Positions 14,280 to 16,103 of a DNA stretch of 26,821 nucleotides are shown piece by piece. The first letter of the stretch is position 1; the number at the start of each line of letters is the position of its first letter. This stretch comes from a virus (taxonomy: Duplodnaviria; Heunggongvirae; Uroviricota; Caudoviricetes), in the IMG/VR virus record IMGVR_UViG_2740892230_000038. One strand, written 5' to 3'. Made by a program: the position numbers and the translations under genes. The notes under the pieces were generated by a model that saw only the letters and a program-made list of their open reading frames with translations, was not told the DNA's origin and ran no database searches.

Positions 14280-14993
14280 ATGAGCGCAAAAAAGAAACCG
14301 TTAACACAAGAGCAGCTTGAGGACGCACGTCGCCTTAAAGCTATTTATGAAAAAAAGAAAAATGAACTTGGCTTATCTCAGGAATCTGTCGCAGACAAGA
14401 TGGGGATGGGGCAGTCAGGCGTTGGTGCTTTATTTAATGGTATCAATGCATTAAATGCTTATAACGCCGCATTGCTTGCAAAAATTCTCAACGTTAGCGT
14501 TGAAGAATTTAGCCCTTCAATCGCCAGAGAAATCTACGAGATGTATGAAGCGGTTAGTATGCAGCCGTCACTTAGAAGTGAGTATGAGTACCCTGTTTTT
14601 TCTCATGTTCAGGCCGGGATGTTCTCGCCTGAGCTTAGAACCTTTACCAAAAGTGATGCGGAGAAATGGGTAAGCACAACTAAAAAAGCCAGTGGCTCTG
14701 CATTCTGGCTTGAGGTTGAAGGTAATTCCATGACCGCACCAACAGGCTACAAGCCAAGCTTTCCTGACGGGATGTTAATTCTTGTTGACCCTGAGCAGAC
14801 TGTTGAGCCTGGTGATTTCTGCATAGCCAGACTTGGTGGTGACGAGTTTACCTTCAAGAAACTGATCAGGGATAGCGGTCAGGTGTTCCTACAACCACTA
14901 AACCCACAATACCCAATGATCCCATGCAATGAGAGTTGTTCCGTTGTGGGGAAAGTTATCGCTAGTCAGTGGCCTGAAGAGACGTTTGGGTGA
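14280..14993 (+). CDS. cI: CI repressor (lambda immunity)
   Basis: [92 protein letters not shown]...SQWPEETFG matches recalled lambda CI. Confidence 0.9.
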
Positions 14994-15043
14994 TGATAAG
15001 TCGCCGAGATGCTCGTAGAGCATACAGCGATGCAGGAGAATTT

Positions 15044-15478
15044 ATGGCACTTAATTTAGAAAGAATATCTTTTATAACCCCATTTGATAGCAGCGAAGAA
15101 CCCAACCAACCGACGCTTAATTTTACATGCAATGAATTTCCTGCGCGGCTATCAATTGATTTCAGGGTTGGTATGATCGGGTTGAAACCAAATTCAAGAT
15201 ATAATTTGGGTATTATGGTAATCCCCGCGCACCTAATTATAAAAAAAGGTGAGGAAATTCAATTCCCTGACGGCTCTTCGGAATCAGTTTCACTTTTCAT
15301 CGATACGAAAGATAGCCATTTTGAAACAGGGGTTGGCGGACAGGTAATAGTAACATTGAAAGAAATTAGGGTCCCAGCTAAAGGGCTGTATAGTGTTATA
15401 GGGAGATTGCAAGATAATGAAGACCCTAAAAATGAACTTCATAAAAATGAATCATTTTTCACCGTAGAGCTATTATGA
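15044..15478 (+). CDS. Hypothetical soluble protein, first gene of a two-gene cassette at the rex position (not RexA-like)
   Basis: ATG at 15044 preceded by aggag SD (alternative GTG/ATG at 14990/14993 overlapping cI stop); 144 aa; AT-rich; stop overlaps next gene start (ATGA). Confidence 0.6.
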   Translation: MALNLERISFITPFDSSEEPNQPTLNFTCNEFPARLSIDFRVGMIGLKPNSRYNLGIMVIPAHLIIKKGEEIQFPDGSSESVSLFIDTKDSHFETGVGGQVIVTLKEIRVPAKGLYSVIGRLQDNEDPKNELHKNESFFTVELL

Positions 15479-16077
15479 GTGACGACAGCAATTTAAATAA
15501 TCATGGAAAGCAAGACACCAACATATCTGAAAGCCGGAGGTTGAAGGTTGTTGGCGGTTCCGATTTTGAGGCTGAATTTGATAATTCTCCCACCAAGGTG
15601 CAAAATAATTACATAAAACCGCCACAAACGGAGGAAGAAGTGGGAACGATCAGCAGAGAGGAACTTGATGCTCGCTTAGCTGCTAATAAAGCAGAGATGG
15701 AGTCTATTGCTTCTTCCATTAGGGCTGACATGGCTCTATCTCGTGAAAGCGTTAATGTCCAATTTGCATCACTTAATGCGGCCATAAGCTCTCTATCGTC
15801 CAAGATCGATGGAAAAATGGATAGCGCTGCTGGCGATTTAAAAGCAATTAATGGGAGATTCGAAGGAATTCAAGGACAAATAACAGGGGTTAATACCGCA
15901 ATTAGTGGTGTTCAGTCGGGTATTTCTATACGATTAGCCATTTTTAGTGTCATTATCGCTGTAATAGTTGCGATTCCCGGGCTGGTATCAGCTTTAAAGT
16001 CAGACCACGCACCTTTGCAAGCGCCGCCACAAAATACCCAGCCAACAGACAACAAAAAAATCACTCCCCAGCATTAA
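15475..16077 (+). CDS. Hypothetical tail-anchored membrane protein (Ser/Ala-rich coiled-coil-like region plus single C-terminal TM helix), second gene of rex-position cassette
   Basis: 200-aa ORF; hydrophobic segment LAIFSVIIAVIVAIPGLVSAL near C-terminus; repetitive region ...ASLNAAISSLSSKIDGKMDSAAGDLKAINGRFEGIQGQITGVNTAISGVQSG...; unlike the polytopic RexB as recalled. Confidence 0.6.
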   Translation: MSDDSNLNNHGKQDTNISESRRLKVVGGSDFEAEFDNSPTKVQNNYIKPPQTEEEVGTISREELDARLAANKAEMESIASSIRADMALSRESVNVQFASLNAAISSLSSKIDGKMDSAAGDLKAINGRFEGIQGQITGVNTAISGVQSGISIRLAIFSVIIAVIVAIPGLVSALKSDHAPLQAPPQNTQPTDNKKITPQH

Positions 16078-16103
16078 CCCGGCCTCAGCGCCGGTTTTTC
16101 TTT
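16078..16103 (+). terminator. tImm-like terminator after the cassette
   Basis: GC stem ccggc...gccgg followed by tttttcttt; homologous to 12901-12927 and 19075-19101. Confidence 0.5.

What the first reader, a model, noticed from the sequence alone, without database searches (positions are those of the whole stretch)
14990..16103. Two-gene, translationally coupled cassette replaces rexA-rexB downstream of lambda-type cI
Directly after a lambda-like cI (stop at 14993) sit two AT-rich ORFs that do not resemble RexA (279 aa) or RexB (144 aa, polytopic) as I recall them. The first is a 144-162 aa soluble beta-rich protein. The second is a 200 aa protein with a Ser/Ala-rich coiled-coil-like core and one C-terminal TM helix (LAIFSVIIAVIVAIPGLVSAL). 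Both are coupled by start/stop overlaps (GTGATGA with cI, ATGA between them) and followed by a tImm-like terminator just before OL/pL, so they should be co-expressed with the repressor in lysogens. The cI-to-N interval is also about 350 bp shorter than in lambda. This is the classical slot for lysogen-expressed exclusion or abortive-infection systems, so a soluble sensor plus membrane-anchored effector is a plausible architecture.
Basis: partly seen in the sequence, partly recalled or inferred. Interest (0 to 1): 0.85.

Follow-up and report, generated by a model that had tools for sequence, protein, structure and literature searches.

The report
Uncharacterised cassette in lambda's rex slot
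In this lambda-type prophage the classic rexA-rexB exclusion genes are replaced by two unrelated genes, a small soluble beta-sandwich protein and a membrane-anchored coiled-coil protein; the pair has been in GenBank since 2007 as "hypothetical" (phages HK542/HK244) and belongs to an unstudied family that sits behind prophage repressors in many enterobacteria, so it is a good but unproven candidate for a phage-exclusion system.

Summary
Homology to lambda stops one base after the cI stop codon (window 14994) and resumes at the rexB stop/tImm (16075). In between, 1080 bp carrying two genes replace the 1398 bp rexA-rexB segment. Neither protein resembles RexA or RexB.

One detail is wrong. ORF1 most likely starts at ATG 15044 (144 aa, with its own AGGAG), not at the GTG that overlaps cI. 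The ORF1/ORF2 ATGA overlap is real and conserved.

The locus is not new. It is 97% identical to the immunity regions of phages HK542 and HK244 (GenBank 2007, "hypothetical protein" x2) and occurs in 51 of 5426 complete E. coli genomes.

No function is known. There is no significant Pfam, NCBIfam, PADLOC or PDB hit, and both PHROGs are "unknown function".

What I add:
- ORF1 is a cytoplasmic Ig-like beta-sandwich (AlphaFold pLDDT 88.8).
- ORF2 is a tail-anchored heptad coiled coil related to DUF1640.
- ORF2 relatives across Enterobacterales almost always lie directly behind a prophage repressor.
- Each has a small partner gene, of at least four unrelated classes, that co-varies with the ORF2 N-terminus.

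A lysogen-expressed exclusion system with an exchangeable sensor head and a membrane effector is the best reading (about 0.45), but it is untested.

The parts
14280..14993 (+). cI repressor, lambda immunity (context; the cassette lies in its operon)
   Evidence: 97% identical to lambda CI over 237 aa. Pfam HTH_3 plus Peptidase_S24.
14995..16074 (+). Replacement segment: DNA with no lambda homology, taking the place of lambda 35828-37225 (rexA-rexB)
   Evidence: BLASTN junctions with lambda. 97% identical to HK542/HK244.
14994..15043 (+). 50-nt leader with Shine-Dalgarno AGGAG (15031-15035); travels with the cassette
   Evidence: Sequence gcAGGAGaatttATG. The same leader is present where the upstream gene is different (L028).
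15044..15478 (+). ORF1, 144 aa, soluble cytoplasmic Ig-like beta-sandwich (phrog_5893). Proposed partner/sensor subunit.
15475..15648 (+). ORF2 residues 1-58: variable N-terminal head with the class-A motif RRLKVVGGSDFEAEFDNS
   Evidence: Most variable region (2.63 bits/column). The motif is conserved only in ORF2 proteins paired with ORF1-family partners, including those with a different C-terminal half.
15649..15933 (+). ORF2 residues 59-153: conserved stalk. It comprises the ISREELDARLAANKAE motif, a heptad coiled coil with Gly/Ser/Thr at a fixed position, and the juxtamembrane GVNTAISGVQSGIS motif.
   Evidence: Alignments A2/A5. Juxtamembrane entropy 0.51 bits. Core positions are 82% and 61% Ile/Val, and stalk length varies mainly in steps of 7.
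15934..15996 (+). ORF2 residues 154-174: the single transmembrane helix (LAIFSVIIAVIVAIPGLVSAL)
   Evidence: Kyte-Doolittle maximum 2.71. It is flanked by R153 and K175, and several positions are conserved (L154, F157, I160, I161, V163, A166).
15997..16077 (+). ORF2 residues 175-200 plus stop: short Pro/Gln-rich tail, presumably periplasmic
   Evidence: Variable (1.99 bits). Relatives carry a QPIIIQVP motif that is absent here.
16079..16104 (+). tImm-type intrinsic terminator closing the cI operon
   Evidence: CCGGCCTCAGCGCCGG plus TTTTTCTTTG. Lies inside the region homologous to lambda downstream of rexB. Annotated Timm in HK542.
16261..16323 (+). oL3-oL2-oL1 and pL (context)
   Evidence: TTGACA-17-GATACT at 16295-16323. 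Operator repeats. Mapped from the HK542 annotation.
16506..16828 (+). N antiterminator (context; right-hand limit of the cI-N interval)
   Evidence: 97% identical to lambda 35386-35037.

Best explanation
The cassette is a 'moron' carried in the prophage repressor operon. It is a member of an uncharacterised family of Enterobacterales prophages, and its most likely job is to exclude other phages from the lysogen.

Proposed mechanism:
1. ORF2 is inserted in the inner membrane by its single C-terminal helix, N-terminus inside. This is inferred from the absence of a signal peptide and the 150-residue hydrophilic N-terminal part.
2. Its 90-residue heptad stalk oligomerises, probably as a trimer. 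This is inferred from Ile/Val at both core positions and from kinship with DUF1640.
3. The stalk holds a variable N-terminal head about 13-14 nm into the cytoplasm.
4. ORF1, a cytoplasmic Ig-like beta-sandwich made in fixed ratio through the ATGA overlap, binds that head. This is inferred from co-variation of partner class and head sequence.
5. Head plus partner form the specificity (sensing) module for some product of an infecting phage.
6. Engagement is transmitted down the stalk to the highly conserved juxtamembrane/transmembrane module, which then perturbs the membrane and aborts or blocks the infection.

Shown here: the gene structure, the fold of ORF1, the single transmembrane segment and heptad repeat of ORF2, the conserved position behind repressors, and the modular co-variation.

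Inferred: co-transcription with cI, the ORF1-ORF2 contact, the oligomeric state, the topology, and the whole defence function.
For: Position:
- The cassette lies between cI and tImm, exactly where lambda keeps rexAB. Published work calls this interval a hotspot for accessory loci such as rexAB and bstA.
- In every related locus with enough flank, except two, the ORF2-type gene and its small partner lie directly behind a prophage repressor. One exception is Xenorhabdus L019. The other is Yersinia locus L007, where the pair follows a DinI gene with no repressor in view.
- At least two Pfam repressor architectures occur: S24 CI-like (including several distinct S24 repressors) and RacR/Phage_CI_repr-like.
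- The genera are Escherichia, Klebsiella (the source name of P0015), Citrobacter, Enterobacter, Cedecea, Salmonella, Yersinia, Pectobacterium, Providencia and Arsenophonus.
- The near-identical E. coli cassette sits behind three different repressors.

Two-gene unit:
- All 38 distinct ORF2/partner pairs retrieved have an adjacent upstream partner. Three further ORF2 loci were not paired by the script, though gene calls show a 99-aa upstream partner in one of them (L010).
- ORF1-family partners overlap ORF2 by the 4-nt ATGA, except the distant Xenorhabdus pair, which overlaps by 8 nt.

Modularity:
- There are at least four partner classes unrelated by BLAST: Ig-like ORF1 family, a 120-aa protein with two CxxC motifs, and two classes of about 97-101 aa.
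- The ORF2 N-terminal 50-105 residues differ by partner class. The class-A motif R-x-L-K-V-V/I-G-G-S/T-x-F persists even where the C-terminal half of ORF2 is of another type (L003, L018).
- Entropy is 2.63 bits in the head against 0.51 bits in the juxtamembrane motif. Variable sensor plus conserved effector is the usual pattern of defence systems (general knowledge).

Membrane module:
- The transmembrane and juxtamembrane residues are conserved far beyond what a mere anchor needs.

Reality and novelty of the genes:
- Purifying selection.
- No catalytic or DNA-binding family is detected.
Against: - There is no experimental phenotype for these genes in the searchable literature.
- No similarity to any of the 5027 PADLOC models.
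- A single-pass helix in a small oligomer is not an obvious ion channel.
- The ORF1-ORF2 contact, the trimer and the topology are not demonstrated.
- Position behind a repressor also fits non-defence lysogenic-conversion genes.
Confidence: 0.45

Rival explanations
1. Non-defence lysogenic-conversion or regulatory function. The membrane-tethered stalk with its Ig-like partner sequesters or positions a host or prophage factor at the inner membrane. It would modulate envelope physiology, stress tolerance or prophage induction rather than act on other phages.
For: - Repressor-operon and other lysogen-expressed genes include non-defence genes such as lambda lom and bor.
- Architecture resembles tail-anchored cytoplasmic coiled-coil proteins, and the kinship is to DUF1640/CCDC90-like, a family with no defence connotation.
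- No hit in defence HMM sets.
- The Ig-like fold resembles ligand- or lipid-binding sandwiches such as RhoGDI, NPC2 and the Wzt carbohydrate-binding domain, at TM about 0.5.
Against: - Exchange of unrelated partner classes and hypervariable heads on a conserved stalk is hard to explain if the target is a conserved host component.
- The family is restricted to prophages and is rare: 51 of 5426 E. coli genomes, and only HK542/HK244 among 50,697 phage records.
Confidence: 0.25
2. Superinfection exclusion at the envelope. ORF2 blocks DNA entry of incoming phages at the inner membrane, in the manner of HK97 gp15, P22 SieA or T4 Imm, without killing the cell. ORF1 is an assembly or stability factor.
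For: - ORF2 is a single-pass inner-membrane protein with a periplasmic Pro/Gln-rich tail, and many relatives carry a conserved QPIIIQVP motif.
- It is presumably expressed in lysogens, by position.
- The most conserved part is at the membrane.
Against: - The variable, presumably specificity-determining parts (partner and head) are cytoplasmic, whereas an entry block should diversify on the periplasmic or membrane side.
- The periplasmic tail is poorly conserved. In the window copy it lacks the QPIIIQVP motif and differs from HK542 by a 6-codon indel.
- A 14-nm cytoplasmic stalk has no obvious role in blocking entry.
Confidence: 0.15
3. Addiction or toxin-antitoxin-like module. ORF2 is a membrane toxin and ORF1 its neutraliser, and the pair stabilises the prophage rather than primarily defending against phages.
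For: - A tightly coupled two-gene unit with the small soluble gene first and the membrane protein second, and cognate pairing of partner and head.
- Many abortive-infection systems are of this type, so this overlaps with the best explanation.
Against: - The cassette is transcribed with the repressor, which already makes the prophage self-maintaining.
- No similarity to known toxin or antitoxin families.
- Partners are not small labile peptides but folded 97-149 aa proteins.
Confidence: 0.1
4. The ORFs are chance open frames or annotation artefacts in a non-coding spacer.
For: None beyond the absence of functional annotation.
Against: - Homologues at 35-80% identity in many genera with conserved length, order and overlap.
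- dN far below saturated dS.
- A confident fold for ORF1.
- PHROG families with E = 5.5e-50 and 4.7e-74.
Confidence: 0.01

Closest known systems
Phage HK542 / HK244 immunity-region ORFs (GenBank EF120458, EF120457, JQ086373; HK542c105/c104, HK542_035)
   Same: The same cassette. It is 97% identical in DNA over all 1114 bases, ORF1 is 99.3% and ORF2 95.6% identical in protein, with the same order cI - ORF1 - ORF2 - Timm - oL/pL - N.
   Different: ORF2 is 206 aa in HK542 and 200 aa here (a 6-codon indel in the tail). Function is not annotated there either ('hypothetical protein').
Lambda RexA-RexB abortive-infection system
   Same: Identical genomic slot, between the cI stop and tImm in the repressor operon. 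Both have two genes, one soluble cytoplasmic protein followed by one inner-membrane protein. It may work in a similar way, with a sensor activating a membrane effector.
   Different: No sequence similarity. RexA is a 279-aa DNA-binding protein that dimerises as a clamp (PDB 8TWQ, as described), whereas ORF1 is a 144-aa all-beta Ig-like sandwich. RexB has four transmembrane helices, whereas ORF2 has one helix and a long coiled coil.
DUF1640 / CCDC90-like (Pfam PF07798) tail-anchored coiled-coil membrane proteins
   Same: ORF2 relatives that share its head and the ISR-x-EL...ANKAE start of the stalk, but have a different C-terminal half, score on PF07798. The architecture is the same: coiled-coil stalk ending in one C-terminal transmembrane helix. 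Hartmann et al. (PMC4786415) describe a beta-layer motif at the start of the DUF1640 stalk.
   Different: The window protein itself scores 12.6 bits against a cut-off of 33.5. Its Gly-heptad repeats, juxtamembrane motif and Pro/Gln tail are not DUF1640 features. DUF1640 has no established function in bacteria.
BstA (Salmonella prophage BTP1) and other genes carried downstream of prophage repressors
   Same: Located directly downstream of the repressor and transcribed from its promoter; a prophage-encoded abortive-infection function.
   Different: BstA is a single, unrelated, DNA-associated protein. There is no membrane component and no sequence similarity (no PADLOC hit).
Membrane superinfection-exclusion proteins (HK97 gp15, P22 SieA, T4 Imm)
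   Same: Small prophage- or phage-encoded inner-membrane proteins that protect the host cell from other phages (own knowledge).
   Different: No similarity was detected. All significant PHROG hits of ORF2 are 'unknown function' families. Those proteins act alone and lack a long cytoplasmic coiled coil and a cognate soluble partner.
Ig-like / E-set beta-sandwich domains (adhesin repeat domains, GH2 Ig domains, Wzt carbohydrate-binding domain, RhoGDI)
   Different: Only the generic fold is shared, at 8-16% identity. ORF1 is a stand-alone cytoplasmic protein of prophages, and no ligand site can be transferred.

Membership tests
Lambda RexAB-type exclusion system | RexA-like sensor: sequence or structural homology to lambda RexA (DNA-binding dimer, PDB 8TWQ) | tested here: not met
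Lambda RexAB-type exclusion system | RexB-like effector: polytopic (four-helix) inner-membrane protein | tested here: not met
   ORF2 has one hydrophobic segment (154-174) and a 150-residue hydrophilic N-terminal part. ORF2 gave no BLASTP match to RexB even at E <= 100.
Lambda RexAB-type exclusion system | Location in the repressor operon between cI and tImm | tested here: met
   The junctions with lambda lie exactly at the cI stop and the rexB stop. The terminator is at 16079-16104.
Lambda RexAB-type exclusion system | Exclusion of T4 rII and other phages with membrane depolarisation | not testable with these tools
   Needs infection assays.
DUF1640 / CCDC90-like (PF07798) | Score at or above Pfam's gathering threshold | tested here: not met
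   The window ORF2 scores 12.6 bits against 33.5. Only 2 of the 13 family cores scanned match (best E = 1.2e-6), and these are the ones with the alternative C-terminal half.
DUF1640 / CCDC90-like (PF07798) | Coiled-coil stalk ending in a single C-terminal transmembrane helix, with a beta-layer-type motif at the start of the stalk | tested here: inconclusive
   The architecture is met. The motifs ISREEL and AANKAE resemble the published consensus [aliphatic]-A-T-K-[polar]-[D/E], but the match is by eye only.
Baculo_PEP_C (PF04513) | Score at or above the gathering threshold | tested here: not met
   21 bits against 38. This is a compositional coiled-coil match.
PHROG phrog_5893 (ORF1) and phrog_5820 (ORF2) | Full-length profile match | tested here: met
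   E = 5.5e-50 (residues 21-161 of the 162-aa form) and E = 4.7e-74 (residues 1-194). Both families are annotated 'unknown function'.
Any known or candidate defence system in PADLOC-DB v2.0.0 | Match to one of the 5027 models | tested here: not met
   Zero families at E <= 1 for ORF1 and ORF2. Among the other family proteins tested, the three alternative partner classes and one ORF2 relative gave no match, and the other ORF2 relative gave only one weak match (DruG, E = 0.023).
Alpha-pore-forming toxins (ClyA/Smh/Mak type) | Significant sequence match | tested here: not met
   MakE E = 0.033 at 13 bits against a cut-off of 360. SmhB E = 0.015. Both count as chance or compositional.
Ig-like (E-set) beta-sandwich fold | Confident model that superposes on Ig-like domains | tested here: met
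Repressor-linked two-gene module (family defined here) | ORF2-type gene preceded by an adjacent small partner, directly downstream of a prophage repressor | tested here: met
   Window. All 38 distinct pairs retrieved have the partner. The repressor is upstream in all loci with enough flank except Xenorhabdus L019 and Yersinia L007.

The most novel reading that the evidence does not exclude
The cassette is the E. coli representative of a new, modular family of prophage defence systems. In this reading a conserved membrane-anchored, probably trimeric, coiled-coil effector projects into the cytoplasm. It carries exchangeable heads, each paired with its own small soluble partner (Ig-like, zinc-ribbon-like, or about 97-aa classes), that recognise different phage products. 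The whole unit is always wired into the repressor operon. It would be a functional analogue of RexAB built from entirely different parts, with a built-in, swappable specificity module.
Probability: 0.35. Interest if true: 0.75.

Novelty: new variant of a known kind. Interest (0 to 1): 0.5.

Why it matters
The interval between cI and N of lambda is the oldest known home of a prophage exclusion system, and RexAB is still not understood mechanistically.

A second, unrelated two-gene cassette in exactly that slot has these advantages:
- It is present in culturable phages (HK542, HK244) and in about 1% of complete E. coli genomes.
- It has relatives behind repressors in at least ten Enterobacterales genera.
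- It is therefore an easy, well-controlled test case: the same repressor operon with a different cargo.

If it protects against phages, it would add a family that current defence-finding tools miss. It would also offer a natural swap experiment, exchanging partner plus head on a constant stalk, to ask how specificity is encoded.

If it does not protect, it would show that this slot also carries other kinds of lysogen-expressed functions.

The replacement of rexAB by these ORFs has been on record since 2007, so the value lies in the family-level picture and its testability, not in discovery of the locus.

Tried and rejected
2. The 162-aa ORF1 starting at the GTG that overlaps cI: rejected in favour of ATG 15044.
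3. First AlphaFold run with 9 close homologues: pLDDT 48.8, unusable. The alignment was enlarged with distant representatives, which gave pLDDT 88.8.
Its oligomeric state therefore rests on sequence arguments only.
5. The afdb50 fold library was unavailable.
6. PDB sequence searches with profiles of both families gave only chance-level hits.
7. Weak hits to pore-forming toxins MakE and SmhB, to S-layer SlaB and to Baculo_PEP_C/NPV_P10/DUF1664 are treated as coiled-coil composition.
9. RhoGDI-like similarity (Foldseek E about 3e-5, TM about 0.5) is noted but too generic to infer lipid binding.
10. An internal pLit-like promoter at 15578-15606: three promoter-like sites were found against 5.0 expected by chance, so this is not evidence.
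11. No Rfam family, notable repeat or supported minus-strand ORF lies inside the cassette.
12. The genome-contig scan returned only 2 loci because of its pattern filter.
13. Literature: no paper on the function of these proteins was found by phage names, accession numbers, DUF1640 plus prophage, or tail-anchored plus anti-phage searches, nor in the DefensePredictor supplements. Degnan et al. 2007 could not be read. What I say about its content rests on the GenBank records and on papers that cite it.
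Full report
1. What is in the sequence

On the + strand the window carries a lambda immunity region in the order cro (minus strand), pR/pRM, cI (14280-14993), two ORFs, a terminator, oL/pL, N (16506-16828).

BLASTN against lambda shows 96.6% identity from window 13900 to 14994, which is lambda 38320-37226 and ends one base past the cI stop. 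There is no similarity for the next 1080 bp. Similarity returns at 88% from 16075, which is lambda 35827, the rexB stop codon, followed by tImm, oL and pL. The segment lambda 35828-37225 (1398 bp, rexA-rexB) is therefore replaced cleanly, with junctions at gene boundaries. The distance from the cI stop to the N start is 1512 bp against 1866 bp in lambda, 354 bp shorter.

Neither ORF resembles RexA or RexB (best BLASTP E = 0.09). The hairpin CCGGCCTCAGCGCCGG followed by TTTTTCTTTG at 16079-16104 lies in the lambda-homologous part and is annotated Timm in phage HK542. Its folding energy alone is unremarkable (z = -1.3), so its identification rests on homology.

2. Gene models

ORF2 starts at ATG 15475 and overlaps the ORF1 stop (ATGA). 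Its first residues (MSDD...) are conserved in Klebsiella and Citrobacter homologues.

ORF1 can be read from GTG 14990, which overlaps the cI stop, but this is probably not the real start:
- The PHROG profile starts at residue 21 of that form.
- All distant homologues begin at the Met of ATG 15044.
- AGGAG lies 5 nt upstream of that ATG.
- GenBank (HK542) and PGAP (E. coli 2014C-3061) aa.
- In Klebsiella-type loci the frame is open for only four codons upstream.

So ORF1 has its own ribosome-binding site 50 nt after cI, and only the ORF1/ORF2 pair is translationally coupled. The 50-nt leader travels with the cassette, because it is present in loci where the upstream gene is not cI.

Both genes are under purifying selection. 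In intergeneric comparisons synonymous sites are saturated while dN is 0.25-0.65. GC content is 37.7% for ORF1 and 43.3% for ORF2, against 45.4% for the window, so the cassette is only mildly AT-rich.

3. The locus is already on record

The 1114 bases are 97% identical to the immunity regions of phages HK542 and HK244 (EF120458, EF120457, and the complete genome JQ086373/NC_019769). There the two genes are annotated 'hypothetical protein' between cI and Timm. These records come from the study of wild phages with lambda immunity (Degnan et al. 2007). I could not read that paper. Later papers cite it for the statement that the repressor-N interval is a hotspot of mosaic diversity and a common site of accessory loci such as rexAB and bstA.

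Among 50,697 phage records only these two phages carry either protein. Among 5426 complete E. coli genomes 51 carry the cassette, always once and always on the chromosome. In strain 2014C-3061 the 100% identical copy lies in a defective lambdoid prophage at the DLP12 site (intD, argU, ompT).

I found no publication on the function of the proteins.

4. ORF1

ORF1 has no Pfam, NCBIfam, PADLOC or PDB sequence match. It matches phrog_5893, unknown function.

The family is very small: 24 representatives among 1.84 billion proteins. A few of these are repetitive surface proteins that share only a G-x-Y strand motif.

With 9 close homologues AlphaFold failed (pLDDT 48.8). With 24 sequences including the distant ones it gave a confident eight-stranded all-beta model (pLDDT 88.8, pTM 0.81).

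ORF1 has no signal peptide or hydrophobic segment, so it is cytoplasmic.

5. ORF2

ORF2 matches phrog_5820, unknown function, and has only sub-threshold coiled-coil matches otherwise. A comparison of 18 diverse relatives gives five regions:
- A hypervariable N-terminal head (residues 1-58 here, 46-105 in relatives; 2.63 bits per column).
- A conserved start of the stalk, (T)ISREELDARLAANKAE.
- A heptad coiled coil with Ile/Val at both core positions (82% and 61%) and Gly/Ser/Thr at a fixed third position. The distance from ISREEL to QSG is 87 residues in most members, or 94, 84, 91 or 120 in others, so it changes mostly in steps of seven.
- The most conserved element, the juxtamembrane GxNTAISGxQSGxS motif (0.51 bits), running straight into a single transmembrane helix (L154-L174). 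Several positions in the helix are conserved.
- A short, variable Pro/Gln-rich tail. Relatives carry a QPIIIQVP motif that is missing in the E. coli version.

A profile of the conserved core finds 96 protein clusters. Every cluster that a source assigns to an organism is from an Enterobacterales genus, and nearly all are named 'hypothetical'. Some relatives keep the head and the ISRxEL...ANKAE start but have another C-terminal half that scores on Pfam DUF1640/CCDC90-like.

Hartmann et al. (PMC4786415) describe DUF1640 as integral membrane proteins with a beta-layer motif, [aliphatic]-A-T-K-[polar]-[D/E], at the start of the C-terminal stalk. In that paper beta-layers occur in trimeric coiled coils. 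ISREEL and AANKAE resemble that motif.

Beta-branched residues at both core positions, together with weak hits to trimeric coiled coils (HA2, reovirus sigma-1), make a trimer the most likely state. This is an inference, not a result.

With no signal peptide and a 150-residue hydrophilic N-terminal part, the expected topology is N-in/C-out (tail-anchored). The stalk of about 94 residues would reach some 13-14 nm into the cytoplasm.

6. The family picture (the new part)

I looked at the surroundings of ORF1 and ORF2 relatives by exact-protein look-ups and collection scans. I analysed them with profile HMMs of both families.

Result 1: every ORF2-type gene paired by the script has a small gene immediately upstream on the same strand. 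This holds for all 38 distinct ORF2/partner pairs. Three further ORF2 loci were not paired by the script, though gene calls show a 99-aa upstream partner in one of them (L010). Gaps range from an 11-nt overlap to an 8-nt gap, apart from two evident mis-calls. ORF1-family partners overlap by the 4-nt ATGA, except the distant Xenorhabdus pair, which overlaps by 8 nt.

Result 2: the partners fall into at least four classes with no detectable similarity to each other:
- The Ig-like ORF1 family, including distant members in Xenorhabdus and probably Salmonella.
- A 120-aa protein with two CxxC motifs (phrog_4293).
- Two groups of 92-101 aa proteins.

Result 3: the ORF2 head co-varies with the partner class. 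All ORF2 proteins paired with ORF1-family partners carry R-x-L-K/R-V-V/I-G/A-G-S/T-x-F...F-x-N/D, except the distant Xenorhabdus pair, whose head differs. This includes the Citrobacter and metagenomic members whose C-terminal half is of a different type. ORF2 proteins with other partners have other heads on the same stalk. The simplest reading is that the partner binds the head.

Result 4: the pair lies directly downstream of a prophage repressor and upstream of the pL/N-side early genes. This holds in Escherichia, Klebsiella (the source name of P0015), Citrobacter, Enterobacter, Cedecea, Salmonella, Yersinia, Pectobacterium, Providencia and Arsenophonus. The repressors are of different types: S24 CI-like, RacR/Phage_CI_repr-like and other HTH proteins.

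Even the near-identical E. coli cassette is found behind three different repressors. In one lineage a DUF3024 gene lies in between and a phage-21-type N lies downstream.

The exceptions are one Xenorhabdus locus, where the pair follows a tape-measure-like gene, and one Yersinia locus (L007), where the pair follows a DinI gene with no repressor in view.

7. Most likely function and mechanism

The constant wiring into repressor operons of unrelated immunity types says that the product is wanted in the lysogen. The combination of a conserved membrane module with exchangeable, co-varying cytoplasmic head and partner is the pattern expected of a system that must recognise diverse and evolving targets. 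This favours phage exclusion over a housekeeping role.

I therefore rank the readings as follows:
- About 0.45: a lysogen-expressed exclusion system in which ORF1 plus the ORF2 head sense a phage product in the cytoplasm and the stalk/transmembrane module executes a membrane effect. It would work like RexAB without being related to it.
- About 0.25: a non-defence lysogenic-conversion or tethering function.
- About 0.15: a block of DNA entry at the membrane. This is disfavoured because the variable parts are cytoplasmic and the periplasmic tail is poorly conserved.
- About 0.10: an addiction or toxin-antitoxin module, which overlaps with abortive infection.

Shown: gene structure, the replacement junctions, the ORF1 fold, the ORF2 domain layout, and the synteny and co-variation.

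Inferred: co-transcription, physical interaction, trimer, topology, and any phenotype. No defence HMM set supports the idea.

8. Verdict

- Its interpretation is reasonable but unproven.
- The locus itself is not a discovery, because it was deposited in 2007.
- The cassette is not a member of the RexAB family. Both defining protein features were tested and not met.
- It does not pass the thresholds of DUF1640 or any other curated family.
- What is worth following up is the family-level architecture, which I did not find described anywhere and which is directly testable in HK542.
- Interest 0.5. Novelty: a new variant of a known kind, namely cargo of the repressor operon with a soluble plus a membrane component.

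Noticed in passing
window 16821-17324 (- strand): A 167-aa ORF lies convergent with N, in the place where lambda has sieB. It matches phrog_1244 (unknown function, E = 4.6e-53) and has a helical N-terminal part and a C-terminal CxxC...CxxC. It has no Pfam or PADLOC match. So a second classical lambda exclusion slot also holds different cargo here. In E. coli 2014C-3061 the same region is annotated as two short hypothetical CDSs.
   Followed up: partly
window, 21 runs of exactly 10 N (e.g. 7307-7316, 13002-13011, 18236-18245, 25090-25099): Regular 10-N runs are scattered over the window, none of them between 14000 and 17000. The run at 18236-18245 is flanked on both sides by a near-duplicate of about 40 codons inside the DUF2528-like ORF 17908-18408. 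This looks like a scaffolding or assembly artefact rather than biology.
   Followed up: no
window 18468-18526 (+): Rfam Lambda_thermo (cIII thermoregulator element), 88.5 bits. This confirms a lambda-type pL operon downstream.
   Followed up: no
L028:1393-4510 and L036:1872-3621 (IMG/VR E. coli prophage contigs): The same cassette (ORF2 about 96-97% identical) sits behind other repressors. One is a 234-aa S24 repressor followed by a DUF3024 gene, with a phage-21-type N downstream. The other is a 215-aa repressor that shares only its last roughly 10 codons with lambda cI, which places one recombination joint inside the 3' end of cI.
   Followed up: partly
L013:3639-4001, L008:4695-4988, L010:4683-4982, L020:3542-3838: Alternative partner genes lie upstream of ORF2-type genes. 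One class is a 120-aa protein with two CxxC motifs (phrog_4293). Several are proteins of about 97-101 aa with no family assignment. Each is paired with its own ORF2 head sequence.
   Followed up: partly
L019:943-4435 (Xenorhabdus anantnagensis): Here a distant ORF1/ORF2 pair lies after a 656-aa tape-measure-like membrane protein and a small lipoprotein, instead of after a repressor. Together with Yersinia L007, it is one of only two exceptions to the synteny.
   Followed up: no
L003:5429-5998 (Citrobacter) and L018:550-1047 (metagenome): These ORF2 relatives keep the class-A head and the ISRxEL...ANKAE start but carry a different coiled-coil and transmembrane half. The one in L018 is DUF1640-like. 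The Citrobacter one ends in an (Ala-Pro)n tail. The effector half is therefore also exchangeable.
   Followed up: partly
L069 (E. coli 2014C-3061, NZ_CP027548.1 2972778-3004891): The 100% identical cassette lies in a defective lambdoid prophage between ompT and intD/argU (the DLP12 site), with an IS3 insertion and truncated lysis genes. The cassette therefore persists in a decaying prophage.
   Followed up: no
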